64,000 nt of DNA from Marsupella aquatica. Its lineage: Eukaryota; Plantae; Marchantiophyta. Below are positions 1,791-62,658 of the stretch, in pieces (positions within the stretch are counted from its first letter, which is position 1; each line of letters opens with the position of its first letter). The stretch spans positions 20,782,169 to 20,846,168 of the forward strand of contig OZ316891.1 in NCBI GenBank assembly GCA_973895155.1. Direction: 5' to 3'. The translations under genes and the position numbers were made by a program. The notes beneath the pieces are model-generated. The model ran no database searches. It was not told the origin of the DNA and saw only the letters and a program-made list of their open reading frames with translations.

Positions 1791-2310
1791 ACAGTAGCTC
1801 TGCCAGGGCTCTTTGTGGTCACATTAATGTATTGCATACTGGTGCTTTTAGCTTGCCTACTGAAGCTCGATGACTGCAAACTGTGATCTGTCTTCCTGCC
1901 TGACTCATCCGCCCTGCCTGCCATGTGAGCTCATGTGGCCGCCAATACATTCACTCAAGGATTTGGATCGATCTAATGCGCAACGCGGGAGCCGGGAGAG
2001 TGGTAGAGCCGTAGAGCAATGCCACGCCGGAAGAGGCATATTTAGCTATGGAGTATGGGACAGCACAACGGAGTCAGTAGCTATAAAAGCTTGGTCTCCA
2101 AGTCTGCCATACTGTAATGAGCTGTATGGTGCCGTATAACAATACTGCGGTTCGAGAGGGAGCTCGGTTAGAGTAGAGTAGAGTAGTGTAGAGAGTAGAC
2201 CCATGAGGCCACAATTAATGAAATAGGTCACCAAGTCAGGAAAACGATACAATTTCCCTGAGAAAGGATCAGAAGAGTGACTGGAGTACATGTGTGAGAC
2301 GGTGAATGAA

Positions 2311-2329
2311 AACCCCAATTTAGACAAAA
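2311..2329 (+). repeat. Left terminal inverted repeat
   Basis: AACCCCAATTTAGACAAAA preceded by TSD TGAA. A subterminal CCAGATTTTATTAA (2349-2362) matches the right-end inner sequence, offset by 19 bp. Confidence 0.9.
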
Positions 2330-2742
2330 TTGGACTTCTGGACAATTTCCAGATTTTATTAAATACAATTAAATACAATTAAATACATTAAGCCCCATTC
2401 AAACCTATAATGATATTCTATAAATCAATCATACACTTGTGTTGTCATTGTCATTGATTAAACAAATTATGTGTACTCAAATCTTTAATCTCAAATTGCA
2501 CACTTTTGAGCGAGACCTTGAGCTATAGTAAGGGTCATTTACATAGAAATAAGGAAACATGTACAATCCATGGTTGGTTGTATTGCCTACAATAATCTTG
2601 AAATCTTTGGCGCCAAGCTATACTTGTCAAGTACATATTAAACTAAATTTACCAGTGTATCATAATAATGATACTTAATACTGCAGCTGCACTAAGTAAG
2701 TACTATCTTGTAATAACAATCATTTTGTATATCCAAGCAGAT

Positions 2743-5700
2743 CTATTCAACATTTTCTTCTCCATTTCCTGGTACCTCACTCTCAATGCATCTAGTAAGA
2801 TTATTTTGTGCTTTCTCAGCATGTCTTTTTGGAATTGAAATCAAACCAAATTTTCCAGTAGATCGCGATTTGAAACACCATAGCACAGTATTCACACTAA
2901 TTCTCTCTATTTCATACCCAGGATCACATTCCCATTTCTTGTTCCAACAATTGAGCCATCGTTCTTTTGCTTGCTCACATGCTGGTTGACCTCGTTTTTT
3001 TTGCATGACAGGTCGTAACCATCTCACATCACACATGTGTTCTATCTGGTTTTGATCATTTGGACTTCCCTCTTCCACATCACTCACCGCTTCTCCCAAA
3101 TAGATTGGGTAAGTATCCAAGTCGTGGGTGTCTGGTCTCACCATGACATAAACACCCTTTGTAACATCAATCCGTGGGTTAAAAACCTCACGTGGCTTAT
3201 CCTTCCAAGGCCCCACATAGTCTATTTGTGCATCCAACTCACACGCAACATTACGGTATGCTAATGGAACATGCTCCCTCCATTTGGATATAGGCCAAAA
3301 TCCGTGCACCAACTCATTTCCATCTTCCGGAAAATATTGTACTTCTATACCCAAAGTGCCTCTCACACGGTTCCAATATTCAATCAGTGACTCCCAACTT
3401 GTTTTTTGTTCCTCCACAATGTGACTTCTCCTCATGATCAATTCAAAAAAGTGCACTTGCTTCAGTAGACCTTCTCGAACCTCCTCCAACACTTTAACCT
3501 CTGTCATTGGTAACCTCTTTGGTGTTCCGGTTGGAAGGTTAGGACGTTTCTTGACTGTCCATGACCACATTTCAATTCCACCATTCGGAAGCCACCCTTG
3601 ATCCATTGCCTTTAGCTTGTATTGCATGCAAGGCATGCCATCCTCTCGAACATACAGTCGAAACACTCGAGGTTTCAAATGGCCCACCAATGTATCTCCC
3701 CCTTTCAACATATAAGGTGCTAAGTAACTTTTAAAATCAGGCACTTCTTGTACAAAATGGGGAACAGGATTTGGTTTTCGTGATTTCATTAGTAGCGACA
3801 TTAAATCTGGGAGAGTATACGATGGCTGCCTCATTAGAGCTTCCGAAAAATTACCAAACATTGCATCAACATCTTCATGAGTATGTCCGACCATCAGAAA
3901 TCCCAAATGAACTTCTTCGAACACCTCTCTCGCTGTCAAAAGTGACAAATATGCCAAAATGAATCTGTTTTTGTTATCTCCAGCACAATTATCAAGTTGT
4001 AACTTCAAGATCCTTGGCAATGGTCTATATAGCTGTGTCAAAGATGATGTTTCAGAAGCCCCTGAAAAATAAGAAATTTTAACAATCAGAACAATGGCAT
4101 GCATCTAGATTGTAATCTCAAGCACACTATTACTCAATCTCAACCAAAACAATATTTGAGATTTACCCACAGCCCACGGGTTGTAGCCTTTCTAAGAGGC
4201 TAATATTTTGGATCTAGAAATTAATTTAAAAAATGCGATTAGAAGATGAGATTCACTCCTAGAAGGATAGACTAGTTGCAACACCTAATCAATGCGTGTA
4301 CTTACCTAGACTATTGATATAGTCTATGTCTTCCTTGAATGCATCTTGAACCATTTCTCCCAAGACGGGCATTCTTCCAATTAACAAATTTGAAAAAAGC
4401 TCTGTAGAATTTGGTCCTTCAAGCAATGATTTCACCATTGGTACCGGATTTTCTAGCATTCAAAATATTGAATCCAAGGAACCAATGCAGGCATTAGGAT
4501 CAGCCGGCCACACTCCAATATTATACTGGGCAATTGCTTTTGGACCATGACCATGAGTCAAGATACCAGTAAGAGTAACCGGGACCCTCTGCACACCATC
4601 CAACGATTTTGGGCATCGTGGCATTCTCGGTAGTGCAGTCTTGCAATGATCCATCTTGTCGTGAATCATACACAAGACCTCCTTTGGCCTATGCACCGAT
4701 TCAAACCTCCAAGCATGATACAACATTCTCCCTTCGGTATGATCTTTGTGATGTCTGTCCTCATCAACCTTCAAAAGTTCCCTTTCCTCTCTTCCTCCAG
4801 TCATTTTGGATTTGCGTTCATTTAACTCACAACAAGTCGTGCACTTTGAGAAGTTACTCCCTTTCTTCTTTATCCCCACCTCCTTAACGTGATTGTTTCG
4901 CAGAACACTCATAGTCGGTTGGGAAACTGGACCAATACCAAACTCTTTGTTCCTAGAGTTCACCTTCTTTCTCAAATTCTCCCAATTCAAACCTATTGGA
5001 AGTTCTCTAAGTACTTGGCGGGTATTGTCATTCATAGTTCGTAACTTAGCTGGATGGTTATCTGCGCATTCGTCTATAATCCCTTTCATTGACATAAGCG
5101 CTTGGGAAACTCTTTCAGACATTCGTCGTTTTCCAAGATTCCCATGAGTACACATACTTGCCCCTGCCCTTACCATTTTCTTCACCTCATAAAACTGACT
5201 TCTTCCTTTTCCGTATATCACCCTCCACGCTTCCAGACAAACCCCTCTCCCATTGGTTCCCTCCATACCAACTATCACTCTACCGCTAACATCATGGACT
5301 GAGTTCACAATAGCAGTAACTTCATCTTCCTTCCGCATCTGATAGCTCTTTGCCCAATGTTTCTCTCGGAGATTATGTGCAAGGTCACGGTTAAAAAATT
5401 GGCAGCATTGTTCCTCACAACAATCCACCTTACTAATGTTTTTGGCATCCTCACGGTCTAGAAACTTGCTTTTCTTTGACAGTGAAATGTTGGCTACTTT
5501 ACTTCTCCTTGTAATGTTCACATAAGATCGCTTTCGACTGGATGCATCAATCTCTATAGGAATAGTGCCCTTGTTTGGAAAGCTCAACATATGACCTTCA
5601 CTAGCTCGCAACAAGCTGAGAGGCCAAGGGACAAGACAATTCCTGTATCTAAGGTGCTCATTTGTCGCGCCATCAACAAAATCAGTAATGAGTATCCCAA

Positions 5701-6187
5701 TGTGTGTGTCTCCGATGATAATTTCCCCTAATGTTGATCCTTGGGTCACAAAAGTAATCAGCGCTACAGCAAAATTAACATTTGCTTCATCAAACACTTT
5801 CACAACCATCCCAACTTGTGGTACAACTCGTCGGATAGTGCTAGGATCAACTTCCCCAGGGACACTATCACAGGCACTGTTAATATTGTCAACTTCATCA
5901 ACATGGACTTCAGGGTGTTTCTCTCTAAAGGGATGAACTCTGAGATCATTTTTATCCCAAACAAGAAAGGATCCAATCAAATGCTTCAAGTATTCTCCAT
6001 CAGAAAATATGAACTTTTCATCCAAACATTCAATAACCTCCACCATTACATGATCCGGACCTAACTCCACCGTGTGACAAATCCTGGTGGGATCACTACT
6101 AAAAATCTTTCCCATCCCAACCAATATCTTTGAGCCAAACAATCCGACCATGTCACCCACTTCAAAAGACAGGATGGTCGTAGACAT
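2743..6187 (-). pseudogene. Sola-like (DUF7869-type) DDD transposase, two exons (6187-4306, 4061-2743), ~1066 aa, one in-frame TGA at 4460-4462
   Basis: Motifs CC..CC, VCLEAWRVIYG, FSKCTTC, MIHDKMD, LQLDNCAGDNKN and FLMVGHTHEDVDAMF. The frame continues through the TGA (IF*MLENPVPMVK...INSL) to donor CTAG|GTAAGT at 4306/4305. The acceptor TTTTCAG|GG at 4062/4061 is phase-compatible. Confidence 0.85.
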
Positions 6188-6875
6188 TTTAGTTTTGCAA
6201 TAGCAATATATAATATTTGTTAGCCACTTTACATTATTCGGTTGCCCTTATCTCAAATTATCCGAATCCCAAAACGATGCCACTCTATCACAAAACTTTC
6301 TAAAAAAAAGAAGGTTCTGTAAAGATCAGAGAATAATGTTTTGGATATTATGTCATCTTTGTAGCTCAGATTGGAATTTAAGGTGCCCCACATCTGGGCT
6401 TTGTTGATTAACTTAACTCAAGGTATCAGTACCCTACCGCCCGCAGGTTGTGAACAATACTTATTGAGGTATCAGTACCCTGCCGCCCGTGGGTTGTGAA
6501 CAACATTGATTTCGCTTCATTCAAGAGATGCTCCCTCCAAGAAACAGTATTCTTTGTTATATATATATATATGTGCAACATCTACAAAAGGTGTCTAGCT
6601 AAGGGTTAACTGGCTCTAGTAAGTTTTGATACCAAGTATCATTGTGTACCCAACAATCAACTCAATACCCCACAATCCATGGGTTGCAGGGTACACAAAT
6701 TCATCGACCATTAGTAGGCTGGCGGCTGATAAACCTTATCAATAACTAGAATGTAATAACATTTTTATGAAAACATTACAAGAAATTCTCTTGAATTCTA
6801 TCAATCAGAGATGGAGGACCCTACAGCCTGTGGGTTGTGCGGTGTACAAATTTTAGGACCCCGGGTGTGGATATA

Positions 6876-6900
6876 TAAACCCTAAACCCTAAACCCTAAA
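6876..6900 (+). repeat. Short interstitial plant telomere-type repeat (CCCTAAA)x3 / telo-box upstream of the transposase
   Basis: TAAACCCTAAACCCTAAACCCTAAA. Confidence 0.7.
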
Positions 6901-7442
6901 TATCCCTATTTCCTCACGGGTTCCAAAGTAGGGTCACAAGAAATTATGATATTAATAATGAATATTGTCCCCTTTTGACACATGATAGTAGTTATCAAGG
7001 GTTCAAACTAGATTTGAGTTTATTCGGCTTATCAAACGGTTTAGATTTGATTTCCTGATTAAATTGTTTAATTTGTTACATGATGTTCGGATGTGGTCAG
7101 GAGTTCAATTTTAGGGTTGAGATCTCACTCCCTGACTGAATATTATGAAAATTAATAAGGGCTATTCAAAATTATGAAGGGCTATTTAAAATTGGTTTAC
7201 TATCTGAACAGATGATTGATGTTGTTTGTTCATAAAATGAGAAACACTTCACCTCAAGTGAGCAGCAAACTTAATTATTTCCAGCAACTGGTCAAGTCTT
7301 CAAGTGAAATTGTGATCTTAGATTTTGTGTTTTAAAGAATTTTAGGGTTTAGTAGTTACTCCAAAATTTTAGATTCGCGTACAACAAAATCCATTTCTAG
7401 AGCATATACAATATTGTATCCGATTCGAACTTTCACAAAGAA

Positions 7443-7505
7443 CATGAATTGAATGTGAGTACATGAATTGAATCTGAATCATGAATTGAATCTGAGTACA
7501 TGAAT
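7443..7505. repeat. ~19-bp tandem repeat, about 3 copies
   Basis: CATGAATTGAAT(G/C)TGAGTA repeated. Confidence 0.7.
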
Positions 7506-8509
7506 AGAGTTTACGTTCATCACATTAGAAACAAAATTGCTTTGATCAGTCACGGGATCGAAGAAATTTAACACACAGACTCAACCAGAAGAGATATAAA
7601 CAGGTTACAAATTGTACACAATGAACCAAACAATAAATTAGGGATTTGAAAGTAGACTGCATACCTTATGCTGAGTGACGACACTCTCTTGTAGCTTGAA
7701 TGTTGTTCCCGATCACTCCAGAGAAGCTAGCTCCTTATCGATCTCCTCAGGTAATCGAGCTCTCCCTAGATTACTCTCGGTCCTCTGATCGAATTGTCTC
7801 AACGTGGGTGACTTTCCTCGATCTAAATGAGCTCAGCCGGTAGTGCTCTCCTCTTGAATGACTCCTCTCCTCTAATCAAGCTCAGCCGGTTGAGCTCTCT
7901 CCCGCAAGTTTTAAGCTATTATGGGAGAGAGCCTTAACCGATCAAGCTCTCGACCAAGAAGTATCACTAAAACAATTGCTATACCTCAAACTTGAAACTC
8001 AGACGAGGATTGATTGAAGATGAATGCGCAATGTGAAATAAGCCAGTATCGTGACCACAACAAAGAGATTGCAAGACAAGCGAGACTAACGCGACCTTAC
8101 ACAAGCGGGTACACAAGAAACATGAGGACTGAAGTCGACTGAGGCTGGTGCAAGGCCTTACAAAAGAAACCTCGGCGAGAACTGAAGATTGAGGCCGGTG
8201 CAAGAGTCTGCATGACGATTCACGCTCACTCTAAGCATCATTCAAATTCAAATTTCAAATACAATTCTCTTGGAGGGAAAACTTGGATGCAATTTGACGG
8301 CCGGATCCACGTTTTGCTTATACTGTAGACGTTATAAAAATACGATGTTGGATCTACTATGTTTGTAATTACGTCAACACTTTCAACATTGCTTTTTCAA
8401 TCTGACAATACGTTACCTTCCAACATACAAACTAAATATTATTTCAGTTACGTTAAATATATGATTGGGATATTAAATGTACTGTAATATTACTATGGTA
8501 TATATTATT

Positions 8510-11150
8510 GTAAACATGGAGCATAGGGATACCTTAAGACAACCTCCTTAATTAGTTCAATTACACTATATATCCGGACCAGCTAGAGTTGCGCTAACAT
8601 GGAGCATGGAGATAATTTATCAAACCCCCTTCAACTATATATATATATCCAGCATTTATTAAACTATATTTCCATCCAAGGTTTCCCAAACATGAAGCCC
8701 ATGTGTACCTTATAAAATCCCTCTAGCTTGCATTAAGTTCTACTTCCTTCTAGGGTTGCACAAACATGGTGCATAGGTACTAATACTTTATAAACCCCCT
8801 TCAAAGTGGAGCATAGGGATACCTTATTATAATATCCCTCCAATTAAATTGCACTTCCTTCCATGTTGCACATACATGAAGCATTGGAGCATCACTCAGG
8901 ATAGTTACCTCATAAACCCTTCGAATTAAATTGTACTTCCAGTTAGTAGGGTTGCGCTAACTGTCCGGGTAACTGTCCCCCTTAATACTTTATAAACCCC
9001 CTTCAACTAACATGGAGCATAGGGATACGTTATAAATTAATACCAGCCCCTTCAATTAAACTAGATATATCTAGCTAGGGTTGGAGTAAGATGGAGCATA
9101 GCGACAAGGGTTGGACTAAGATGGAGCATAGCGACATGTTATAAACCCAACCCCTTAAATTAAACTAGATTTCTAGCTTGGGTTGCCCTAATTAACATGG
9201 AACATACTAGGGATAAATTGTAAACCATCCTCCATTAAACTATACTTCCAGGCATCCAGGGTTGCACGAACATGGTGCATGTACTACTGTACAGGTATAT
9301 TTTCTAAAACCCCGTTAGTTCCATGAAACTATATACTTCCATCCAGGGTTTCCTAAACATGAACTAAGCATTAGTAGCTCTAAGGTGTACCTTAATTATA
9401 AAACCCTGCTTGCACTAAGTTCTACTTCCTTCTACTAGGGTACCCCTTCCAACCTAATTGTACTTCCAGGTAGGGTTGAACTAAATACATGGAGCAGACT
9501 TAGGGATATATATATATATATATATGTACATTTAAAAACCCCTTGCTTTAAATTATACTTCCAGGCATCCAGGGTTGCACTAACATGGAGCATGGGTATA
9601 CGTTATAACCCCCTTCAATTAAACTAGATATGCAGCTAGGGTTGCGCTAATTAACATGGAACATACTAGGGATACGTTGTAAACCCCCTCCATTAAACTA
9701 TGCTTCCAGGCATCCAGGGTTGCACTAACATGGAACATACTAGGTATATTTTCTAAACCCCGAGTTCCATTAAACCAATGATATACTTCCATCCAGGGTT
9801 TCCCAAACATGAAGCATTAGTAGCTAGGTGTACCTTATAAAACCCTGCTTGCACTAAGTTCTACTTCCTTCTACTAGGGTACCCCTCCAACGTAATTCTA
9901 CTTCCTGGACCAGGTAGGGTTGAACTAACATAAAATTGAGCAGACTTAGGGATATATATATACGTACATTTTAAAACCCCTTGCATTATATTATACTTTC
10001 AGGCATCCAGGGTTGCACTAACATGGAGCATGGGTATACGTTATAAACCCCCTTTATTAAACTAGATATGCAGCTAGGGTTGCGCTAATTAACATGGAAC
10101 ATACTAGGGATACGTTGTAAACCCACTCCGGCGTTAAACTATGCTTCCAGGCATCCAGGGTTGCACTAACATGGAGCATACTAGGTATATTTTCTAAACC
10201 CCGAGTTCCATTAAACCAATGATATACTTCCATCCAGGGTTTCCCAAACATGAAGCATAATTAGTAGCTAGGTGTACCTTATAAAACCCTGCTTGCACTA
10301 AGTTCTACTTCCTTCTACTAGGGTACCCCTCCAACGTAATTCTACTTCTAGGTAGGGTTGAACTAACATACATGGAGCAGACTTAGGGATATATATACGT
10401 TTTAAAACCCCTCAGTTGCATTAAATTATACTTCCAGGCATCCAGGGTTGCACTAACATGGAGCATAGGTATACTTTATAAAACCCCCTTAATTAGTTCC
10501 ATTAAACTATATACGTTATTAAACCTTGCTTGCACTAAGTTCTACTTCCTTATAGGGTTGCCCAAACATGGGGCATAGGTATTTTTATAAACCCCCTTCA
10601 ACTAACATGGAGCGTAGAGATACCTTATCAAACCCCACGCCTTCAAGTAACATGCATGGAGCAGAGCAACACCATATAAAACCCCTTGGATTGAATTGCA
10701 CCTCCATCCAGGGTTGCACCACCATGGGAAATAGGGATCTACCTTATGAAATCCCTCGAATTAAATTGCCCAGGTTCCTTCCATGTTGCACACACATGGA
10801 ACCTAGGCTAGGGATACGTGATAAACCCCTCGAATTAAATTGTACTTCCAGTAGGGTTGCACTAACATGGAGCATGTATACTTATGGATACTTTATAAAT
10901 CCCACTTCAATCAATTAAACTATACTTCTAGCTAGGGTTTGACTAGCTAACATGGATATTAGGGATACCTTCTAAACTCCCCTAATTCAATTAAATTATA
11001 CTTCCATCGAGGGCTGCACAATGAACATGGAGAATAGCAATACCTGCTAAACCCTTCCATTAAATTAGACTTCTGTCCATTATTTACCCAAACATGGAGC
11101 ATAGGGCTACCTGATAAACCCCTGGCATTTAAGTATACTTCCATCCAAGG
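8510..11150. repeat. Internal satellite of the transposon: ~65-70-bp monomer with ~440-bp higher-order repeat
   Basis: The monomer resembles AAACCCCCTTCAATTAAACTATACTTCCATCCAGGGTTGCACTAACATGGAGCATAGGGATACCTTAT. Near-identical blocks are offset by ~440 bp (GATATATATA tracts near 9505, 9950 and 10388; duplicate spurious ORFs at 9619 and 10057). Confidence 0.9.
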
Positions 11151-11304
11151 AATCAACGTACTCAATCAAGTGATAGCATCAACGTACAGCAGGACGGGTA
11201 TTGTGAACTGGATGATGGTGACGTGTTTGCTCACTCGCGCGTGCACTAGATGATGGCGACGTTTTTCCCCACTCGCGCCTGTTTGAGTACTACCGATCAC
11301 GTTC

Positions 11305-11470
11305 AAGAACTGAATCAAATGATTCAGACTGCCAAAGACACCGAGTCGACATTGTGCGGAAGAACTGAATCGAACAAGTCAGATTGCCGAAGACACCGAG
11401 TCGACATTGTGAGGAAGAACTAAAGCGAACGAGTCAGACTGAAGGGAGTCGTCGACATTGTGCGGAAGGG
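11305..11470. repeat. ~55-bp tandem repeat, about 3 copies
   Basis: AAGAACTGAATC...TCAGA(C/T)TGCC.AAGACACCGAGTCGACATTGTG(C/A)GG repeated. Confidence 0.7.
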
Positions 11471-14302: not shown

Positions 14303-14870
14303 TACCTCACCACCCACGGGCCGTGAGGCTCACTTGGATTGACTGTCTAGCATACCTCACCACCCGCGGGTTGTACGTGCAACTCACTAAAAGCTCAACA
14401 TATCTCACCACCCGCGAGCCGTGAGGCTCACTCAGACCGACTGTATAGTATACCTCACCACCCACGGGCCGTGAGGCTCACTCAAACCCATAGTCTAGCA
14501 TACCTTGCCACCCGTGGGCCGTGAGGCTCACTCAGACCGACTGTATAGGATACCTCACCACCCGCGGGCCGTGAGGCCACTCAGACCTACACTCTAGCAT
14601 ACCTTGCCACCCGCGGGCCGTGAGGCTCACTCAGACCGACTATATAGCATACCTCACCACCCACGGGCCGTGAGGCTCACTCAAACCTACTATCTAGCAT
14701 ACCTTGCAACCCGCGGGCAGTGCGGCTCACTAAGACCGGATGTCTAGCATACCTCGCCACCCGCGGGTCGTGAGGATCACTTGGACCGACTGTGTAGAAC
14801 ACCCCACCACCCACGGGCCCTGAGGCTCACTTGGATCAACTGTTTAGCATACCTCACCACCCGCGGGCTG
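14303..14870. repeat. 50-bp tandem array of hairpin/palindrome units (12 cores) directly upstream of the cargo gene
   Basis: Unit TACCTCACCACCCGCGGGCCGTGAGGCTCACTCAGACCGACTGTATAGCA starts at ~14303, 14353, 14401, 14451, 14501, 14551, 14600, 14650, 14700, 14750, 14800 and 14850. It contains a CCTCAC..GTGAGG stem and a CCCGCGGG palindrome. Confidence 0.95.
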
Positions 14871-14965
14871 TTGGCTGTGTTTGTCATCCATTCAAACAAA
14901 CTAACTATAGAGAGACCTTCCTTTTTAATTAAATAAAATTCCTTGTTTTTTGTGTGACTCCAGAT

Positions 14966-17900
14966 ATGGCTCCTAGAAATGGCAGCTCCCGAACAAAGAG
15001 CAAGACCGAAAGCTCAATTGTTGACCAGCTTGATAAGATGAAAATGATCAAAACATATCGAGGGAAAAAGATACGGGACCTTACCTCACCGGAAGCCAGC
15101 TCAATTTATAGAGTGAAGTCAAGCAACGTCTTTGATTGGGGATTAGTACTCCAGAATAAGGAATTGCGAATATGTTTCACGCACAAGGAGACGTTACATA
15201 TCGTCATGGATGCAGAAATTTTGGGATGCATCTTCAAGCGAAATATGGGGCTTGATGACCTACAAGAAGCATTGGTACTTCTCTTTGACGAAAAAGAAAC
15301 TGGAGAAACAATTGGGGTTTGCTTTGATCGAATGGATTATGGAACTTTCTCCCAGCGGAAAGTCACAGAATATCTCACCTCAAGTTCAGAATTGCTTGGT
15401 TCGAATTGTTGGGAGGGCTTTCCCATTGCACCATTGGTTCCAGATCCAGAAAGTATCTCCAGATACATCAATGCCATTTTGGAGTTCTCAAAACAACCGT
15501 TCACCGAAATATTTTCTGTCACCAGGAAAGGGGGAATTTTGGCATCAAATCCTCCAAAGGATATCACGACGAAGAACGTGGATGAATTATTTTGCAGCTT
15601 TCTAGAATCATACTCTCATCTGAACATCTTTCAGAGCAAGACTTTTGAGGTGCCTATTGAGAGATGTCACCTGGCACCAAATCACATAAAATGTCGTGAC
15701 TTTGATGAAGATTATGCCACCGAACTGAAGGCTGCTTTCTTTGGCTACTCCTCGATAACCTTTCAAAAAACTCTCTGCTTTCTTGTCCCAATAACATGGG
15801 ACTCAAAGAACAAATCAAAAGGTTACTATGGAACTCCTCTAAAAGAGGCACCGCAGAGTGATGATATTACCAACACTTGTCACTTCTGGATTCTTGGTGG
15901 GCAGCACACAATAATGGCATACAAGGCGATCCTCAAGGAAGATGATAAGCGATGCACATTTCGGGAGGATCTTCGCAAGGTTCAGGCAATTATGTTCTGG
16001 TCCCCATACAGTTTGAAAGAAAACCTCACGATGATGGGGCTCTCTCGAGCCTTGAACAATATCTAGAGAACTCAACTTGACGAGACTAACTTTCCGTTGA
16101 TAGCGTCCCAAGCACGTGCAGTATGGAAAGAGTTTGGAAGTCCAAGAAAAGAGAATGCTCAGGCAAAGGGGTCAAAATGGAAGGTAAATTATCAGACACT
16201 TCTAGATAGCATGAGCCCTACAACCCGCGGTTTGTGTGGTAACATTGAACATAATGACTTGAATCTGTATTTTCTGTAGGGTTCTAATATTATATTTTGT
16301 AATGTTTTATATTCAGGTGTTCCTTGAAGCTGCCAAGATTATTGTTCCATGGGCACGGCAGATGAAAACGTTTTCATTTACCGAGCTCAATCCGTTTATC
16401 TTTCATATGAGCCATGCAACATTCAGCAAATGGATGCGGGTATATGAGAAGTCTCGTACAGGATCCCTTATAGCGTTCAATGGTAAAACGCAAGCTCAGG
16501 CAATAACTTACAGTAACCGGAAGACTTGGCAACTGAATAGGCGATGCTTCCGAGATCTACAAGGGATGGAGGAAGCTGACATAGACAAGGTTGCCGCCTA
16601 CTTGTTGGAGAATTCAAAGATATCTCTTTTGAAGGACCGACCTCATTCAAAAGATTATGATGCTGAAGAAGCCGAAAAGTTTATTTCCATGGAAGAATTT
16701 TGTGTCAACAAGAAGTAGAAGCGAATGTTTGAGATAGATCTGTTGGAGAACTTGGGTGACGGTGGCATGAAACGTACTGAATTGAATAGCCTGAAAAAGA
16801 TTGAGAGGAAAGTTGAGGTTGATATCTTGTGCAAGAGGTATCATCTTAATAAAGAAAAGCTGAGCAGGATCAGGGATTCACTAGGAGAGGAGTATCTCAA
16901 CAAGGCATCGCAGAAAACAACCAGTGTTGGAACAATGAAGAGTCTTCTCCCAGAGGCTTTTAAGAGCGTAATTGCCGCAACAAAGAACTCCATTGACGAG
17001 TTTGGAAACCTGAAGCCTCCCCAAATCAAGGATATCCTTCAGTTACACTCGCGGAAAGGTCTGAAAACAAAGAAATTTCTTGACGAAATCTCTGAGTCCC
17101 TGAGACAACGGGTAGACTTTTTCTATTTTGACTCCACTATTCTATCTGATGACGGTCCATTCATATCCAGTTTTTACTCTATGTTCATCAGAGCAATTAA
17201 ACAGATGGGGACGGTAAATCATGTCCATGTCTCAGATCCTATTGAGTCTATTTTCATGATGAGAGAGTTAGTGTCAACTCCAGGATATTTCCCATTCCAA
17301 ACAACTTACGTCCAGAGAAGAGGCACCGAAAAGTCTCATATTTCCCTCTTTAACACAGAGCGGGATGTTACATATACTGTGACATATGCATTTTGTCAAC
17401 CTCTCTTATCAAAATCTACCGACATGACAAAGATAGGGGAAGCAATTAAGTCCAGTCTACAAACTCGGGGAACTCTCCTTAACTTTCAGGAGTCTAAAGA
17501 GGATCAGGCTGCTAGGTCTTTCCCTGGTGAGAAAAGTATTCTCTTTTTCCAATACTTGACTCGACTGTTTCTCGACAACGGAAAGCATGCTGTCTGTTTT
17601 GGAGAAGGGCTAAACTTGGTCAAATGCCTCCTGGTAAGCTTTCAAGTATTATTACAATTCTATTTTTGAATAGCTTTAACCTTATCTTAAGTTCCTCTAA
17701 CATCTTGCTTGTTTATTCCAGGAAGAAGGAGTTAAGGTTAGATCTTATTGTAAACGATCATTTCACACAGAAATGAGTGGGTATTTTGGTGCCTTGTATC
17801 CTAGTAAAGCACCATGTCTCGACAGAAAAAGGCTTGAGGCAATGATGAATGCGAAGATATCTCGAGGAAAAACCTTCAGAGAAGTCAAAGAAGATGTAAT

Positions 17901-19652
17901 TGATCATTGTAAAAGCATGCTCACATATAGTGATGAAAACGTTGAGAGAGTTTTAAAAGAGTATGAATTGAGTAACCTCCTCAGCCAGAATTGGATATAC
18001 TATTTCCCATCAAAGATGCCAGTTGGACCACTTAAAGGTTAGTCAGCCGAAACCATATACTTGATTAATTTTAATACATTCACTAACTTGATTGCACAAA
18101 TGAAATTTTGAAATCTGATTGTTGTTCCTCTGTTTCAGATGAGAAGTCTACTATCTTTGAAGATGAAATCAACACTGGAGAGTATGAATCAAGTGAGGAG
18201 GAGCCAAACGATGCAGAAGAACCAGGGTCAGAATCTGAAAACCAAGACGATGATGAAGAACCAGGGTCAGAATCTGGAAACCAAGACGAGAGCTCAAATG
18301 AGTCCATGAGTGCAGACAATCATTCAAAGAAGCGGAAGAATATGGGTGACGAAAGTGACATGGAGACTTTACAGCATAAGAGAAGTCAAAACAGGAGACG
18401 AGTTGATACTCGTCAAAAGTATACAAAAAGGAAGCAGAAACCAACCAGCGGTACCGATGACTCCGAACAGGAGTTTGATGACAATTGGAGGGAGCGGCGG
18501 ATGAAAGAAAAACAAGATCAAAAACAGCAAGCAGATGAGAAAGAGCAAAGGCAATTTACATACACTGAAGAAGGAGGAGGGGCGGATGAGGAGCAGGGAA
18601 AAACTAACCTGGATGGTGAAGGAGATGAAGATGGTGATCGTGATGAGAATGAAGGATATGGAGGTGGTGCAGGAGATGAGAATGAAGGAGATGGAGGTGG
18701 TGATGAGAAGGAAGGACATGGAGGTGATGATGAGAAAGAAGGACATGGAGGTGATGATGAGAAGGAAGGACATGGAGGTGGTGCAGGAGATGAGAATGAA
18801 GGACATGGAGGTGATGATGGGAAGGAAGGAGATGGAGGTGGTGATGAGAATGAAAGGACATGGAGGTGATGATGAGAAGGAAGGAGATGGAGGTGGTGCA
18901 GGAGATGGAGGTGGTGATGAGGAGCAGGGAAAAACGAAGCTGGATGGTGAAGGAGATGAAGATGGTGATGAGAAGCAAGGAGATGGAGGTGGTGATGACA
19001 AGGAAGGAGACCGAGGTAGTGATGACAAGGAGGAGAGCAACAAACAGAGCGATGGATACAAGGGGAAAAATGTAACAGAAGATGGAGAAAGAGAAGAAAA
19101 CTACTGGAACAAAGCCGGTGATAATGATATTGTGAAACTAAATATCCGGAATTATTTTCGATCAGTAGTAAGTCTTGAAGACACAACTCGGCCAGATAAC
19201 ATTTCGGTTGCAGACTGGGAAGTATACTTCCCCGATGAATTGAAACTTCATGCTTGGAATGGGAGACAATTTTGGACTACTGTTTTGAATGATATCTCAA
19301 CTCTAATAACACCTTCAGAGAGAAAACTCTAATAACACCTTCAGAGAGAAAAGAGTTCGAGAGAAATAAAATATTTATGGAAGAAGCTTGCGGTCGGATT
19401 GGAGAGCCCTCCATTAGCTTGATGGCCGAGGAGAATGCTTTAATTGACATGACCCAATGCGATCATGCTTGGGCAAAGTTGAATGAAGATACTTCTTCAG
19501 CTACAACCCATGGGCCGTCAGATGCGAGGTCAGATGGCAACGAAGGTGATCAGATGGAACCAAATTCTCTCAATGAAGAACAAGAAAATGAAACAGATGA
19601 AGCATACGCCGATGTTTTGCTCAATATGCCACTACCTTTCCAAGGGCATAAG
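14966..19652 (+). pseudogene. Transposon cargo gene, exons ~14966-16183, 16317-17633, 17722-18037, 18139-19652: ParB/Srx-like domain + degenerate beta-class DNA MTase-like domain + acidic repeat
   Basis: Phase-compatible GT/AG introns join the ORFs. Lesions are in-frame TAG at 16064 and 16716, a +1 frameshift near 18855 and a 26-bp duplication at 19301-19352. Motifs: FEVPIERC..RDFDEDYATELK..FWILGGQHT..LSRALNN (ParB-like); RVDFFYFDS and FPGEKSILFFQYLTRLFLDNGKHAVCFGEG (MTase-like). Domain calls are by eye. Confidence 0.7.
18585..19040 (+). repeat. Coding minisatellite, 27-33-bp units encoding G/D/E-rich repeats (GHGGDDEKE / GDGGGAGDENE)
   Basis: GGACATGGAGGTGATGATGAGAAGGAA-type units, plus a duplicated DEEQGKT.LDGEGDEDGD block. 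Confidence 0.9.
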
Positions 19653-19968
19653 GTAAACTTTCTATTATCCTAAGTAGCCTTAATGTACTGTCTAGTTTTA
19701 TTTCATCGCCTCTGGTTTATATTTTTGAGCTTATTCTAATATCAAATCACCTCATCATGCAACCAGGTAAAGGATGTTCCCACTTTCAGAAAGAGAATTT
19801 CTGCATCGGACAGAAATGGGATACACATCATAACTTTGTGATGAGATATATCAACTAAAAAAGCAGCTACTTCAAAGAGTAGAAATGGGGTCTTGCAAAA
19901 ATTTAGTTTTGTTTGCATAGATTTTATAAAACTGTAATTCTCTCATTATTTTTTTTCTTGATGTACAG

Positions 19969-20661
19969 GTGAAAAAAGTCATTATTCTTGATGTAAACAA
20001 AGTTATTTTGTTAAGTGTGTATTCTACCAAACTACTTGACCAAAGTGTCGGAGTTCGGGTCGGGTCTAAGTTCATCTACAAGAGGCGGTATTTGCGGGAG
20101 TTTCTAGATTTTTGCAAAGCAAACTTCGACGTTGCAATTTGGTCCTGCATGCAATGGCACAATCTTAAGCCTATCCTTCAAACTGTATTGACTAGTGATG
20201 ACAGAAAACAGTTAAAATTTATTGCTACTCAACAGGACACAGTTCGATTTGGCAACCATTTCAAAACCCAAAAACCAATTTTCTTGAAAGAGTTGAAAAA
20301 TCTGCGTTCGAAACTAGAAAATGACTATTATAGTGAAAACATTATACTCATTGATGACTCTCCTTACAAAACGTGCCTAAATCCATTTTACTCTTCTCTC
20401 TACCCTGAACTGTATTCTGGACAGATAGCGGACAATTTTTTCCCCAACACTCTTATTCCATACCTCAGAACACTCCTGAACTCTTCCGAAACAATGCACA
20501 AAACCATACAAAACAAATATCCTACTTGGTCATTGTTTGCACTAGTTGAAGATTGGGAAGAAAATAGAATGATCTGGTCAACTAATGACACTGTGAGGTT
20601 AGAGAGTGACCCACATCACCTCAAACGATTTAATGAGTACGCTGACATTGTTTTTCAATAA
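19969..20661 (+). CDS. FCP1/NIF-family HAD phosphatase-like domain exon (cargo)
   Basis: KKVIILDVNKVIL, YKRRYLREFLDFCKANFDVAIWS, KPIFLKELK, ENIILIDDSPYK..LNP. It begins right after acceptor TACAG|GTG and is probably spliced to the upstream cargo gene (phase 0 donor at 19653). Confidence 0.8.
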   Translation: MKKVIILDVNKVILLSVYSTKLLDQSVGVRVGSKFIYKRRYLREFLDFCKANFDVAIWSCMQWHNLKPILQTVLTSDDRKQLKFIATQQDTVRFGNHFKTQKPIFLKELKNLRSKLENDYYSENIILIDDSPYKTCLNPFYSSLYPELYSGQIADNFFPNTLIPYLRTLLNSSETMHKTIQNKYPTWSLFALVEDWEENRMIWSTNDTVRLESDPHHLKRFNEYADIVFQ

Positions 20662-20777
20662 ATGTAAGGACTCTTTTTTTCTCATGCATATTTAATGTTA
20701 ATGTTTTATTTAGTTTATTGCCTCTTTTGTTTTGTATTATTTAATGCTCAATTGCTGACATGTTTTGTGTTGTGCAG

Positions 20778-21401
20778 ATTATAAAATTTGTTTCTACCCG
20801 AAAATTACTTCTTTTCCATGTTGAAAGCATTCTCGTCTTCTCCGTTGGGTTCTCAAGGCATTTAAGAAATTCGACTGCCTTCTGCGTTAAGAAGAAAATG
20901 ATCTTTCCTAGACCATTTGTTCAAGAGTTTTTAAACTTTTGCTCTGAAAACTTTGACATTGGATTTTGGTCCCGGAATCATACTGATTGGTATGAAGTGG
21001 CCGATCATGTTGATCCACTTCTCACTGAGAAGGCTCTTGAAAGTTTTAAGATACTATGGTGCCGACGAGACGACCTTAAGTCAAATCAGTGTGGAATGAA
21101 TATCAAGATTGTTATGAAAGAAGCCCCTGGGTATTTATATGAAAATGTAGTACTCTTAGGAGAGGCAGCATCTATAAGTTTTGATTCTCCATATTATGCT
21201 GCACTTCATCCAAAACCCTTTTACGGTGATCTAGGTGACCAGTTTTTAGAAAACACTCTCATGCCCTATCTTCTAAGACTTGCTCACTCAAAGGTTAGTG
21301 CACATAGATTTATTAAATCCAACTATCCATTGTGGTCAATGAGGCCTAGAGAAGAATTCCAAAAAAGTAGAGACATTAAGGTGTCTATTTACAAAGATTA
21401 A
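20778..21401 (+). CDS. Second, more degenerate FCP1/NIF-like domain exon (cargo)
   Basis: RKLLLFHVESIL, FPRPFVQEFLNFCSENFDIGFWS, ENVVLLGE, PYYAALHP and DQFLENTLMPYL..NYPLWS parallel the preceding domain. Acceptor TGCAG|ATT at 20777/20778. The catalytic Asp residues are lost. Confidence 0.7.
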   Translation: MIKFVSTRKLLLFHVESILVFSVGFSRHLRNSTAFCVKKKMIFPRPFVQEFLNFCSENFDIGFWSRNHTDWYEVADHVDPLLTEKALESFKILWCRRDDLKSNQCGMNIKIVMKEAPGYLYENVVLLGEAASISFDSPYYAALHPKPFYGDLGDQFLENTLMPYLLRLAHSKVSAHRFIKSNYPLWSMRPREEFQKSRDIKVSIYKD

Positions 21402-21770
21402 ATAGAGTTATTTAAATTTGGTTTTAGATTAAAGACTACGTTTCATATTGTCTGTGATACTACATTCACTATAATAAAAAGTGTCCAAGTTACATTATCT
21501 TAAAGCTCTATCTTGAATTACTCTCTATTGCAAATGAATTTGATGTTTATGTTAAATTTTTCATTCCGAGTAAACCTCCATGTACTATGTACACTATATG
21601 TTCACAAACAGGATATTTTTTATTGCTACGCTCCATGGATTGTGAAAGTATTATCCTTGTGTATGGTTTAAAGAGAATCATATACCAAAAAAATACATGT
21701 ATAATACAATCATAATTAAATATAATATTAAATAATATACACTATGAATTCCGGACTTAATAAATTCTGG

Positions 21771-21789
21771 TTTTGTCTAAATTGGGGTT
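21771..21789 (-). repeat. Right terminal inverted repeat
   Basis: TTTTGTCTAAATTGGGGTT is the exact reverse complement of 2311-2329 and is followed by TSD TGAA. Confidence 0.9.
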
Positions 21790-24700
21790 TGAACCGCAAA
21801 AGGACCCATGTCTCCAGGAAAAAGCGTCTTTAACTGTTCATTCTGGGATTGAAGGCAGTTTGGCTGCAGTGCCTGCCTGTTGTTCTCTCCACAACCTGCA
21901 CATGGAAAAGAGCGGAATTTAGCACCAGTCCTGCATTGCCTTCCCAACGTTGCATGCTGGGTGTCCGATCAGCGTGTCCGATCATCCGTATTCTCTGAGG
22001 CGCATTTTCTTGTGTGGGCCCACGGAATTTGGCGGTAGCTCTCATGGAGTTGGGATCCTTGAATGCATCTCTGGACTAGATGTTTTAGACCTAACAGCTC
22101 TTGTTGCCAGGTTTGCCTTTCAGAGACAGTAAGTGGATGCAAGTATTTGCACACAGTATCATGACGCCAAAACTTGCCCTCTTTAGAGCTTCGACCTTCA
22201 TGCTCGCAGAAATATTCTTCTTGTGGCAGTCATATTACCGCGGATCGTACAGGACAGTGGATGAGGTCTAAACTCTAATTATCCCTCCTGAAAACTCAGT
22301 CTAAGTCTGCCAAAAGAGAGCCTGAGTGGATCGAAAGGTGAATGTTTGTGTCCTACGTTATCTCCATTTACTGACGTTCACGGCAGTCTTTGGCGATTGG
22401 AGTCGGAAAAGTTGAAAAGGAACAACAACTACAACAGTTGTCTGCATGTCTTGTGTTAGGAACTCCTTTCTGCATCCCTATGTCAGTGTGAGAACTCCAT
22501 ACTTATATCGGGACGTTAAAGGCTTGCACTCTACAGTAGAAAGGGATGACCCTAATCCGACGCCGGGCGTTTGGATATTTTGATCCCGAGCCACTTCGCA
22601 GTTTTTGTTAAATTAGCAGAGAATAATAATTAGGTCTGCTTCCAATCTGGAGTTGAGTTCATGCACACAGAGAGTAGGCTTGCATTCCAATTCCAGACTG
22701 AAAGTCCGATCGACCGGTCTTGATAATTATTACCAACTGACCAATCCGCTTATAATACAATACGTCTCTACAAAATGACCAAAGTCTGTCAACAGTCTCG
22801 TCAAGGGCATGAAGGTCCAGAGGACTGAATTCGAGACGAGGGAGTGCTACGGTACGTACGTAGGGCCACCGTACGTCATGTGCACCTTCCTTTCTTTCCC
22901 ATGGTAGTTCACTTACTTACCTGCTAGATAGTTGTACATGGGTCTACTCGCTCTCCTGGGTGTCACGCTTGAATGGCAATGACGGGAGCACCATGGAAAG
23001 CCGAACTAGTTGTATAGATTGCACAAAAAGGTGCGCCTACAGTTTCCATTTCTTTTATGAGAAGCGAGATGAGAAGTTGAGCTAGCCAAGCCAAGGCAAA
23101 CCAAGCCTGTAGTAAACAGTGCAAACTGCGTACCATTGTGTACTACTTCATCAGAACAGTGCTGTATCATTCCGGTCTGACGAACGGAATCTAATGTGGT
23201 GATCCTACGAAATCTCTCTCGCGCGCTTTGCACAGCACGGCGTCAGGTTTCCTGACTCGGGTAAGCTTTTACATTACAGTGCCGGACTTTGCAGACTTAC
23301 TTTGGAGGGCCGGTGGGGCTTGGGAAAAGTAGCAGCGACATTAGTGACAACGCGAGGTGAACATTTACTCTGCGTTGCAGCATGCATTTTTTGATAAAGG
23401 TACCCTGGAGGATTTCCCGGCATTTGGACATATATTGCGTGCCGATGCTACTTTGCATTCAGTTCTTTCCCGTCTTGCTCTGGCTCCACAAGGTATTACT
23501 CGTGATAAACGTGAAACGTCGCTGACGTGCGCGCATCTAGTCGATTGCGAAGTCAAACTAAGTATCAACTGCGATTAAAGTCCTTTGTGTTACTGCTTTC
23601 TTGCTCATTGCGTCTAAACTCGAGAGTTCTTGAGACTGATGCCCTTTAGAAGTATTGAAATGTTTGGAGGATGATCGGCTGCTTTCGCAAACAGGAGTTC
23701 ACTCGCTGCAGAGAGCAGGACATCCATCCGTCAAGAAATAGATCGGTTTCGAGTATAATTCCGTAGAGCTCGAATGGCTTTCAAATCAAAAGTATAGTCT
23801 CGTTTCGAACCATCGGGATCCGTAACTAAGATTCCTGTCGGTGTTGGGTTCGTTGAATAGTGAACCTCCCAATTTGACGCATCCTCATGTACTTTACAAC
23901 TGCCCTTGGTATTCGTCAACCGGATCACGGTGCATGCAAGTTTTGCATTCAGTTGACAGAGTCGGTCACAGCAGTGTCTTCGAAACCCGCATCATTAGCT
24001 TTTACGAGGGAGAGAGTTCGCATGTCTAGCTCTACGGATTTCAAAACAAAAAGCTGCTCCTCAGGCAGTCTTAAATTGATAAAGTATTGAACCTGGCTTT
24101 TATCTCCAGGCTCTGATGCAGATTCCAGTGGCCCCTCCCTACCACTCAGGCTCAGTCACGGATATGCTGAAGAGCTGTTTTACAGAACACATGAATCCAT
24201 AGCTGGAAGCTGGGGACGGATTGCGGGTAGGTGTGTGACTCTCAAAAAGTTCCCGGGAGGTCGACAAGCGAGGTCTAGACTCGGCGCGAACTGAAACATT
24301 TTTTGGAACAGTACGTTGCACATCATGTGGATGTAGGAAAGGAATATCTCAAGCTGCCAGATCGAGGGTCGGAGATTGTCTGAACCTATATATGGGCCAA
24401 ACTTCTATCTGCTTACCTGCTCAATTTAGACCACAGTTGGCAAGCTGTGGGTGAGATCCATAAAAAAAGTATCAAGTGGTTCACCATACATGATAATGCT
24501 CCACCCACAGTGTGTGCATCTCCAAGTTTTGACGTCACAGGACTAAATGCTTCGCAATACATATATACACTGGCCGAGCCTAAATGATTCCCTCTGAGAA
24601 CCTAAAGCCTCACTAGTAATTGTACTGTCAGGATGAGTCTCAAGATTCTTCTCGCTTTTGAAAATTTTCAATTCCGATTATGATCAGGGATGTAGGCTCG

Positions 24701-45600: not shown

Positions 45601-46657
45601 TAGCTCCGGTGTATGGTCCAACGTTACCAGGCTCAGATCCACTTCGAACATGAGCAGCAGCCTTTTCATTTCCTGCAGCATAGTCCCAGGAGTTGGACCT
45701 CCGGCTACCCTTGAGAGAACCTGAAGTTGGGGAAGGAACTGGTGCATGCCCACTTGCTGCACCATTGTTGTGGACTCCCCTGCCACTGATGGAAGCAGCT
45801 GGATTAGTGATGGGAGACGTACCAGCCTTCACAGGCCCCCCGTGTGGAAGAATGTTCCCAAAATTCATAATCCTCCCTACAGTGGGACTGCCTCCAGAAG
45901 AACTTCCGCCGCTGGAGCTACTGCCAATGGATTTCGGGCTCTCTGCTCTGGGACTCCGGCCTTTGCTGCTCGCACTACTAGAATCCAAATCCGATGATTT
46001 GAGACCACCACCACTGGAATTATCGTCACACAAGTTTCCCACCCCCTTGATGATCTCACCGAAAGCGAACCCATCCGCATGAATTCCCTTCACGTGGATC
46101 CTCTCGTTGGAGAGCTCTCCACTGCTTTTGCGGCTGATGTTGTGGTTGTGAAATGGTGGCGTCCCTGCAGTGAAGAGCTCTCCACTACTTTTGCGACTGG
46201 GTTGCAGATTCCTATTTGCACCGATTTGAACGCCTCCTTTGGTGGTCTGCTGAACCGGACTGACTTCAGGAGTGGTGAAACCTGGACTCTGACCCATCAT
46301 CCCTCCAGTAGACCTCCGTCGCTCGATTCCGGGTCCACCCGAATTTGCCCCAAACCCAAACCCGTTTCCGTTAGGAGATTCGGACTTGAAGCCCCCACGA
46401 GCTGCTTTCAGACCACTGTCTAGGCGAAATCCGTCTTTGGATTGATTTTCCTGAGCAAAATTCTCCACCCCATTCAAACGATTGTGGATCACATTGCTGT
46501 AGTCTCCAGCTCTGTGGTAGCTCGGACCACTCGGCATGGGGTCCACGTGACCATTCCCTATGGTTGCCCCATAAAGGTGTCCACTGAAAATGCCACCGTA
46601 CAAGTCGAATCGGGTGTTACCACCATGCTTCTTCACGTCTGCCTGGCATTGGGCCAT
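42654..46657 (-). CDS. TTL: TPR repeat-containing thioredoxin-like protein (TTL family); exons 46657-45219, 44768-44573, 44401-44232, 44051-43718, 43534-43327, 43112-43006, 42806-42654
   Basis: Ser/Gly-rich N-terminus followed by TPRs ([42 protein letters not shown]; [22 protein letters not shown]; [11 protein letters not shown]). The C-terminal thioredoxin-like domain has WSERC instead of WCGPC and ends [21 protein letters not shown]. All six introns are GT-AG and phase-consistent. The start codon is less certain. Confidence 0.93.
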
Positions 46658-48255: not shown

Positions 48256-48525
48256 GAACGGGGAGGACGGGAGGTGTCTATACTCTATACTCCACTGCGG
48301 CAGGGAACAAGAAAGAAGCGGAGAAGGGTGGGCGTTAACGAATCATCAGCAGTAGAAGCAGAAGCAGGCGAGGGAGAGGTGACATGCTGGATTCTGCGTG
48401 CTGTCGTATGCTCGCCGATGTCACGGTGTTTGCTCGCTGGCTGTGAGCTAGAGCTAGCTTGCTACCTAGCTCAGCACCTACGTACGTATGTGCGTGCGTG
48501 CGAGCGAGCGAGAGCATCAATGCAC

Positions 48526-48730
48526 CGCAGCAAAGCAGAGCAGCAAAGCAAAGCAGAGCAGCAAAGCAGAGGAGCAAAGCAGAGCAGAGCAGAGGAGCAA
48601 AGCAGACGAGCAAAGCCAAAGCAGAGGAGCAAAGCAATGGAGCAAAGCACAGCAGAGGAACAAAGCACAGCAGAGGAGCAAAGCAGAGGAGCAAAGGAGC
48701 AAAGCACAGGAGAGGAGCAAAGCAAAGCTG
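48526..48730. repeat. AGCAA/AGCAG/AGG compound microsatellite
   Basis: Runs of AGCAAAGCAGAGG-type units. Confidence 0.85.
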
Positions 48731-62515: not shown

Positions 62516-62658
62516 ACCGCGTGTTAAATTTACGTCAACCGTACAACCAGAACATAAACCAATACACTATATTTCTGATTTATAAACCAAATGATTTGAA
62601 CAACATGTGTCTTGGTTTATGTTCTGGTTGTACGGTTGACGTAGATTTAACGCGCGGT
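62516..62658. mobile_element. 143-bp foldback MITE, Mutator-like (9-bp TSD)
   Basis: 52-bp inverted arms (62516-62567 / 62607-62658, 3 mismatches) flanked by CTAACAAAA direct repeats (62507-62515, 62659-62667). Confidence 0.85.

What the first reader, a model, noticed from the sequence alone, without database searches (positions are those of the whole stretch)
2307..21793. 19.5-kb cargo-carrying Sola-like transposon with intact TIRs and TSD
Seen: perfect 19-bp TIRs, a TGAA TSD, a DDD transposase on one arm, a ~6.4-kb multi-exon gene on the other arm in divergent orientation, and ~8.7 kb of repeat-rich spacer. Known: Sola elements make 4-bp TSDs and are usually a few kb long, encoding essentially a transposase. 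Inference: this is a giant multi-gene member that moved as one unit, possibly an undescribed plant family.
Basis: partly seen in the sequence, partly recalled or inferred. Interest (0 to 1): 0.9.

Follow-up and report, generated by a model that had tools for sequence, protein, structure and literature searches.

The report
Giant plant Sola1 transposon with helper
This is a real 19.5-kb cut-and-paste jumping gene of a land plant, present at this spot in some samples and absent in others, that carries beside its cutting enzyme a large second gene whose protein likely grips short mirror-image DNA words scattered through the element; the design was reported in seaweeds in 2025, and the plant version adds phosphatase-like parts.

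Summary
Confirmed as a mobile unit. The 19-bp TIRs (2311-2329, 21771-21789) and the TGAA duplication are there. The empty site is seen in 3 of 5 sequencing runs, and near-identical copies end at exactly the same base before two other flanks (ATTG, ACTA). The transposase (1,066 aa, DUF7869) matches the Sola1 second-Asp motif. The second gene is an old accessory gene rather than casual cargo: a ParB/DUF3723-like part, a probable degenerate DNA-methyltransferase part (lead only), an acidic tract and two NIF/FCP1 phosphatase-like domains. A fern protein shares the ParB-like + NIF combination. A 16-bp palindrome occurs at 19 sites, all inside the element. The layout is already published for the brown-algal Sola1-1_Ec32 (21.5 kb, 4-bp TSD, AACCG termini, opposite-strand ParB + MTase gene), so the kind is known. 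New here are a land-plant, insertion-polymorphic member and the NIF domains. This copy is not 'intact': both genes carry stops or frameshifts. The function of the accessory protein is inferred, not tested.

The parts
2307..2310 (.). Left copy of the 4-bp target-site duplication (TGAA)
   Evidence: empty-site joint 2306->21790 with 4 letters fitting either side
2311..2329 (+). Left 19-bp TIR, begins AACCC
   Evidence: another left flank ending ACTA in run X2
2743..4061 (-). Transposase exon 2: DUF7869 core (LQLDN and GHTHEDVD motifs) and C-terminal part
   Evidence: Pfam E 2.9e-40; splice sites
4062..4305 (-). Transposase intron (GT-AG); holds one palindrome copy at 4169-4184
4306..6187 (-). 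Transposase exon 1: N-terminal region, C-x-x-C, first acidic motif HDKMD; premature TGA at 4462-4460 (codon 576)
   Evidence: spliced product 25-33% identical over 701-1171 columns to 5 of 5 homologues tested
6440..6838 (.). Cluster of four palindrome copies upstream of the transposase start
6876..6900 (.). (TAAACCC)3.6 plant telomere-type repeat, probably a promoter telo-box (inference)
8513..11145 (.). Degenerate ~74-bp repeat array with a 438-bp higher-order unit (9107-10492); part of the family, covered in runs X1-X3
14303..14868 (.). 50-bp tandem array (11.4 units) with 12 palindrome copies, ending ~100 bp before the accessory gene's ATG
14966..16183 (+). Accessory gene exon 1: unnamed N-terminal part + ParB/DUF3723-like domain (W-I-L-G-G-Q-H-T); premature TAG at 16064
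   Evidence: Atlas 0.95 to clusters with DUF3723 on 31-47% of members; 38 relatives; collinear but weak ParB alignment
16317..18037 (+). Accessory gene exons 2-3 (16317-17633, 17722-18037): helical linker + probable degenerate N4C/N6A methyltransferase-like domain; premature TAG at 16716
   Evidence: Atlas 10 of 10 rows PF01555 at 0.80-0.84, a lead only; Calypogeia protein 34% over 428 columns; not supported by own profiles
18139..19652 (+). Accessory gene exon 4: acidic, Gly/Asp/Glu-rich repeats; +1 frameshift near 18848 and a 26-bp duplication at 19299-19352
   Evidence: the 26 bp are absent from contigs of X1 and X3
19969..20661 (+). NIF/FCP1-like HAD phosphatase domain 1 (motif I reads DVNKV)
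   Evidence: Pfam PF03031 E 3.6e-14; UBLCP1 3shq E 3e-4
20778..21401 (+). NIF/FCP1-like domain 2, lacks the motif-I Asp; 28% identical to domain 1; either spliced in frame via a donor at 20593 or an alternative last exon
   Evidence: Pfam E 7.4e-9
21771..21789 (-). Right 19-bp TIR
   Evidence: contigs of X1, X3, X4 end at 21789
21790..21793 (.). Right copy of the target-site duplication (TGAA)

Best explanation
This is a recently inserted, insertion-polymorphic copy of a 19.5-kb Sola1-type cut-and-paste transposon of a land plant, whose second gene is an old accessory gene that likely binds the element's own 16-bp palindromes and likely helps keep the element expressed. Shown: TIR-bounded unit, 4-bp TSD, empty site, two other insertion flanks, both genes and the spacer travelling together, palindromes confined to the element. 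Inferred: a DDD transposase from an intact sister copy cuts at the 19-bp TIRs and inserts with a 4-nt stagger at AT-rich sites. The accessory protein would recognise the palindromes through its ParB-like or neighbouring domain, as proposed for Ectocarpus Sola1-1_Ec32 and red-algal Plavaka PAG3, and would act like the VANC anti-silencing proteins of Arabidopsis. Its methyltransferase-like part looks catalytically degenerate, so in plants the effector role would have passed to the acidic tract and the NIF phosphatase-like domain. This copy's own genes are broken and it could move only in trans.
Against: No binding, expression or activity data. The methyltransferase call rests on a sub-0.9 Atlas lead and by-eye motif order; my own profiles scored it no better than shuffles and Pfam, PHROGs and NCBIfam did not name it. 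The ParB call is not made by Pfam for the query or for 21 of 38 relatives scanned, and hhalign gave probability 0.6%. 0 of 3 target sites fit the AWWT preference called a Sola1 hallmark. No Repbase Sola sequence was in my tree. The palindrome pattern was derived from the element itself. No single contig spans a whole second copy, and the ACTA duplication pairs flanks from two different runs. No intact copy was shown.
Confidence: 0.7

Rival explanations
1. Same element, but the accessory protein works in the transposition reaction: loaded at the palindromes, a ParB-like clamp would bridge or compact the 19.5 kb so that the two short TIRs can pair.
For: TIRs are only 19 bp and 19.4 kb apart; transposition efficiency falls above about 6 kb of cargo (PMC6431247 passage). 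ParB/DUF3723-like genes recur in unrelated giant elements: Starships, Plavaka, Sola1.
Against: The palindromes cluster in front of both genes and in introns, not near the ends, which fits transcriptional control better. The ParB G-x-R-R motif (recalled as the CTP-binding motif) reads G-Q-H-T/S in all 13 relatives whose motif was printed.
Confidence: 0.2
2. The second gene is a passive passenger (Pack-type capture of host NIF exons plus decayed sequence) with no role for the element.
For: NIF domains are host-type; motif I is altered in both; the gene is broken in this copy. None of 80 metagenome loci around related transposases showed the ParB-like or MTase-like parts; 3 had only a weak NIF hit, E 0.002.
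Against: 38 relatives keep the N-terminal domain; about 10 of them end within a few residues of the same W-K-V intron position. A fern protein has the same fusion. The loci are mostly short or decayed. The same gene type sits in the same position in an algal Sola1.
Confidence: 0.07
3. The transposase belongs to a separate DUF7869 lineage next to Sola1 rather than to Sola1 proper.
For: First-Asp region (HDKMD...TALP) and the middle block differ from the mostly animal Sola1 profile. Targets are not AWWT (0 of 3).
Against: The second-Asp block matches the Sola1 profile. The algal element with like termini and TSD bias is filed as Sola-1 with best hit Sola1-1_PPa.
Confidence: 0.15

Closest known systems
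Sola1-1_Ec32 of Ectocarpus (PMC12477816; passages and supplement rows read; Fig. 1C not seen)
   Same: About 20 kb; 4-bp TSD (biased to end in A there; 2 of 3 sites end in A here); termini AACCG..CGGTT versus AACCC..GGGTT; accessory gene on the strand opposite the transposase with ParB-like + N4C/N6A methyltransferase domains; pseudogenised copies moving in trans.
   Different: Land plant; TIR 19 bp perfect versus 282 bp imperfect; accessory protein about 1,860 aa versus 1,104 aa, with an acidic tract and two NIF domains; methyltransferase motifs look degenerate. The sequences themselves were not compared.
Sola1-1_PPa of Physcomitrella patens (Bao et al. 2009; paper not held; known from mentions)
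   Same: Plant Sola1; the review says some Sola elements exceed 15 kb.
   Different: Its gene content could not be read; it may already carry this accessory gene.
Plavaka PAG2/PAG3 accessory genes of Bostrychia (bioRxiv 10.1101/2025.02.11.637652; one passage read)
   Same: ParB-like accessory protein with tandem arrays of inverted repeats next to its gene; proposed self-binding and self-modification.
   Different: Different transposase superfamily; effector is a 2OG oxygenase or methylase + SET, not NIF.
VANDAL/VANC of Arabidopsis (PMC5735166; abstract read)
   Same: TE-encoded accessory protein with target motifs in tandem repeats in non-coding parts: the working model.
   Different: Mutator superfamily; no homology shown; anti-silencing is demonstrated there and untested here.
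Starship DUF3723 auxiliary genes (bioRxiv 10.1101/2021.12.13.472469; passages read)
   Same: Atlas features of the exon-1 domain are nearest to clusters carrying DUF3723 (0.94-0.95).
   Different: Tyrosine-recombinase elements of fungi; no sequence-level match to PF12520.

Membership tests
Sola superfamily | DDD transposase of RNase H fold | tested here: met
Sola superfamily | 4-bp TSD | tested here: met
   TGAA on both sides, single in the empty site; ACTA at a second site, paired across two runs
Sola superfamily | TIRs (11-1124 bp reported) | tested here: met
   19 bp
Sola1 | Match to the Sola1 catalytic profile | tested here: inconclusive
   By-eye comparison with 78 of 124 consensus positions: second-Asp block 12 of 19 identical, first-Asp and middle blocks weak; no scored search; Sola2/3 profiles not read
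Sola1 | AWWT target preference | tested here: not met
   0 of 3 sites (TGAA, ATTG, ACTA) in either orientation; feature; the algal Sola1 is described only as biased to end in A
Sola1 | Phylogenetic nesting with Repbase Sola1 | not testable with these tools
   No Repbase sequences; my tree shows only that it sits in a 12-row clade with a Riccia protein, apart from animal-type relatives
ParB + amino-MTase accessory proteins of algal transposons | ParB-like domain | tested here: inconclusive
   Atlas 0.91-0.95; collinear 66-column hhalign, probability 0.6%, E 0.1; no Pfam hit
ParB + amino-MTase accessory proteins of algal transposons | N4C/N6A methyltransferase domain | tested here: inconclusive
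   Atlas 0.80-0.84, 10 of 10 rows PF01555; own HMM and hhalign at shuffle level; model pLDDT 39 and its fold searches uninformative
ParB + amino-MTase accessory proteins of algal transposons | Opposite strand to the transposase; palindromic arrays beside the gene | tested here: met
Active FCP1/NIF phosphatase | D-x-D-x-T/V motif I (recalled) | tested here: not met
   Domain 1 reads DVNKV, domain 2 lacks the first Asp; activity of D-x-N variants is untested
Pack-type non-autonomous element | Captured host fragments, no own transposase | tested here: not met
   Full-length transposase gene present; the second gene has TE-type relatives across plants

The most novel reading that the evidence does not exclude
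Land plants harbour a still-active lineage of giant Sola1 transposons with a ParB/parS-like self-recognition system: the accessory protein binds a 16-bp palindrome repeated before both genes, has lost its methyltransferase activity, and instead delivers an FCP1-type phosphatase to its own promoters to steer RNA polymerase II past silencing. Because filled and empty alleles segregate, this can be tested directly.
Probability: 0.25. Interest if true: 0.85.

Novelty: new variant of a known kind. Interest (0 to 1): 0.55.

Why it matters
It extends the recently noted ParB-type accessory system of giant algal transposons to land plants, with a different effector module (NIF domains) that appears to be shared with a fern. 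Those papers only proposed that such proteins bind and modify their own element. A young family (0.4% between copies) with defined palindromic sites and filled/empty alleles is good material for testing that, and for asking how a 19-bp-TIR element moves 19.5 kb. Practically, these accessory genes will be annotated as host phosphatase genes unless the element is recognised.

Tried and rejected
No own genome held, so no genome-wide copy search. No RNA holder listed: no evidence either way on expression. Word-index searches for long relatives of gene-2 exons 1 and 2 found none; the exhaustive search found 38 for exon 1 and could be run only once, so exon 2 was not searched that way. tblastn of the MTase-like part against phages: no match. 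PDB sequence search of exon 2: 7 rows, none below E 0.06. Three-sequence hhalign: score 12 within 40 block shuffles of 10-19; that alignment was visibly out of register. Single-sequence fold pLDDT 39; both fold searches uninformative. Metagenome relatives (80 loci kept of 429) are short or decayed; no convincing TIR pair in 21 long loci. Viral collection: nothing. Prokaryote genomes: 3 hits, one inspected and eukaryote-like. Rfam: 0. The first tree lacked the window row through my off-by-one splice; redone with 16 rows, leaving out P0006, P0007, P0010-P0016, L045 and L063 (mostly long branches). A 20-bp TIR reading was rejected (no TSD; contigs break at 21789). A third gene in 11.1-14.0 kb was not resolved: candidate splice sites but no ORF of 100 aa or more there. 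Earlier-finding look-ups by sequence, by place and one by words were empty.

Full report
OBSERVATION. The window shows TGAA | AACCCCAATTTAGACAAAA (2311-2329) ... its perfect inverse (21771-21789) | TGAA. No shuffled window reached 19 bp with a 4-bp duplication (0 of 20; best 15 in 2). The minus-strand gene splices from 6187-4306 to 4061-2743 into 1,066 codons with one stop at codon 576. It carries DUF7869 (E 2.9e-40). The plus-strand gene runs 14966-21401 in six predicted GT-AG exons, with stops at 16064 and 16716, a +1 shift near 18848 and a 26-bp duplication at 19299. So the ends are intact and the genes are not.

MOBILITY. No genome was held, so I used public runs. Five hold the stretch, from three studies and two coded organisms. 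I laid X1, X2, X3, X5 on 2050-22049 and X1-X4 on 21560-22200. The empty site, with a single TGAA, is in X3 and X5 (joint 2306->21790) and in X4 (left flank joined to 21790): 3 of 5 runs, 2 studies. The filled site is in X1, which may be the window's own source and is not independent support. X2 was read only to about 57% and does not cover the right junction. Contigs of X1, X3 and X4 leave the element exactly at 21789, into flanks starting ATTG (X1, X4) or ACTA (X3); an X2 contig enters the left end from a flank ending ACTA. That gives three sites. The ACTA duplication pairs two runs and is inferred. X1, X2 and X3 have depth in all 30 bins; the 8 listed X1 contigs differ by 61 substitutions in 16,193 nt (0.4%) and the 8 listed X3 contigs by 54 in about 6,900 nt (0.8%). 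X3 lacks the insertion here but holds the whole element elsewhere, and a 2,124-nt X4 contig links the 3' end to the ATTG flank. No single contig spans a second copy. The right flank of the empty haplotype differs from the window by 28 substitutions in about 410 nt, so the insertion is much younger than the two haplotypes. Whether sister copies have open frames is not visible, since 441 difference rows were cut.

SECOND GENE. Exon 1 has 38 relatives at E<=0.001; about 10 end within a few residues of the same W-K-V intron position. Two of the 10 looked up are named: a Calypogeia protein, 34% identical over 428 columns of the linker and the start of the next domain, and a 990-aa Adiantum protein with the same N-terminal domain and a C-terminal NIF domain (E 1.4e-8). 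The fusion is therefore old or has been repeated, and is not a capture private to this copy. The genomic context of these relatives could not be seen. The exon-1 domain scores 0.94-0.95 to Atlas clusters carrying DUF3723 (31-47% of members) and 0.91 to one with ParB_N (11%). It aligns collinearly but weakly to ParB. The exon 2-3 domain returns only N6_N4_Mtase clusters (10 of 10 rows, 0.80-0.84), and by eye follows the beta-class motif order with degenerate catalytic and SAM motifs (motif names recalled). My profiles did not confirm it, so it is a lead, about 0.65. Two NIF domains close the gene; neither has the canonical D-x-D motif.

SPACER AND MOTIF. A 16-bp imperfect palindrome with core CCCRYGGG occurs at 19 sites: 12 in the 50-bp array just before the accessory ATG, 4 upstream of the transposase, and one each in the transposase intron, accessory intron 1 and exon 4. 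All 31 strand matches lie inside the element and none in the other 44.5 kb (1.3 expected). The pattern was drawn from the element, so this shows enrichment, not function. Bacterial parS sites are also 16-bp palindromes (recalled).

MECHANISM. Shown: unit, ends, TSD, polymorphism, co-travel of both genes. Inferred: cut-and-paste by an intact sister transposase (0.9); the accessory protein binds the palindromes (0.55); it acts on the element's expression in the manner of VANC (PMC5735166 abstract) rather than on end pairing (about 2:1, from where the sites lie).

WHAT IS KNOWN. It describes Ectocarpus Sola1-1_Ec32: 21,549 bp, AACCG-CGGTT termini, 4-bp TSD biased to end in A, best blastp hit Sola1-1_PPa, and an opposite-strand 1,104-aa ParB + N4C/N6A methyltransferase gene (passages and supplement rows). 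Red-algal Plavaka elements carry a ParB gene beside arrays of inverted repeats (one passage). A review gives Sola sizes of 2-9 kb, some over 15 kb, and presence in Physcomitrella (PMC10741241 passages; PMC9033089 passages); Azolla has many Sola copies (PMC6786969 passage). DUF3723 is a recurrent Starship gene (passages). Also seen as passages only: PMC6431247 (no mention of Sola), PMC8885841, PMC4455052, PMC3985635 (one supplement file not searched). PMC7466625 and PMC13317346 had no hit for Sola. Seven searches found no description of a land-plant Sola1 with a ParB-like or NIF-bearing second gene. Bao et al. 2009 and Repbase could not be read and may already hold it; bioRxiv supplements were closed.

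HOST. A land plant, probably a liverwort or other bryophyte: inferred from the named relatives, the plant telomere-type repeat and a TPR gene at 43.6-46.8 kb. Not determined.

VERDICT. Real, recently mobile, well bounded. A new variant of a known kind: the giant Sola1 + ParB-type accessory design, here in a land plant and with NIF domains. Interest 0.55.

Noticed in passing
window 21790-22195 versus 2311-21789: The empty haplotype's right flank differs from the window by about 7%, the element by under 1%, and the ATTG and ACTA insertion flanks each occur in one run of organism A and one of organism B: gene flow, loose labels or a shared recent burst.
   Followed up: no
window 2870-4200, 12794-13391, 14610-14813, 19305: A sister subfamily about 90% identical in the transposase 3' part, with different intron sequence, is present in X1, X3 and X5; X3 and X5 also hold diverged pieces of the gene-2 side, so the two-gene layout may be shared.
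   Followed up: partly
window 2311-2390: The left end has several times the depth of the right end in X3, suggesting related or non-autonomous elements that share the left end.
   Followed up: no
window 20895-20930: An X1 contig matches 36 bp of NIF domain 2 and continues in frame as a diverged NIF-like sequence: another family's accessory gene or a host donor.
   Followed up: no
window 43655-46771, minus strand: Host TPR-repeat gene, TTL-like by recall.
   Followed up: partly
window 62516-62658: 52-nt inverted repeat, 94% complementary, 39-nt loop: small MITE or hairpin-RNA candidate.
   Followed up: no
window 21902-21958: 57-bp piece with a second, high-depth contig and identical loose ends in all four runs: an interspersed repeat in the right flank.
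   Followed up: no
window 48492-48758, 60322-60975, 1-144 / 50430-50575: Degenerate AGCAAAGC tandem array, ~165-bp repeats, and a 146-bp dispersed repeat at 73%.
   Followed up: no
L083:1604-3596: A fragmented, apparently spliced DUF7869 transposase in a 16-Mb 'Nitrospirales' bin: probably eukaryotic contamination.
   Followed up: partly
L072:6596-14545: A 2,650-aa open frame containing this transposase core in an AT-rich metagenome contig; its N-terminus looks SET/PHD-like by eye.
   Followed up: no
L035, L044, L048 near 270-580: Weak NIF-like hit (E 0.002) about 9 kb upstream of a decayed related transposase, same strand.
   Followed up: partly
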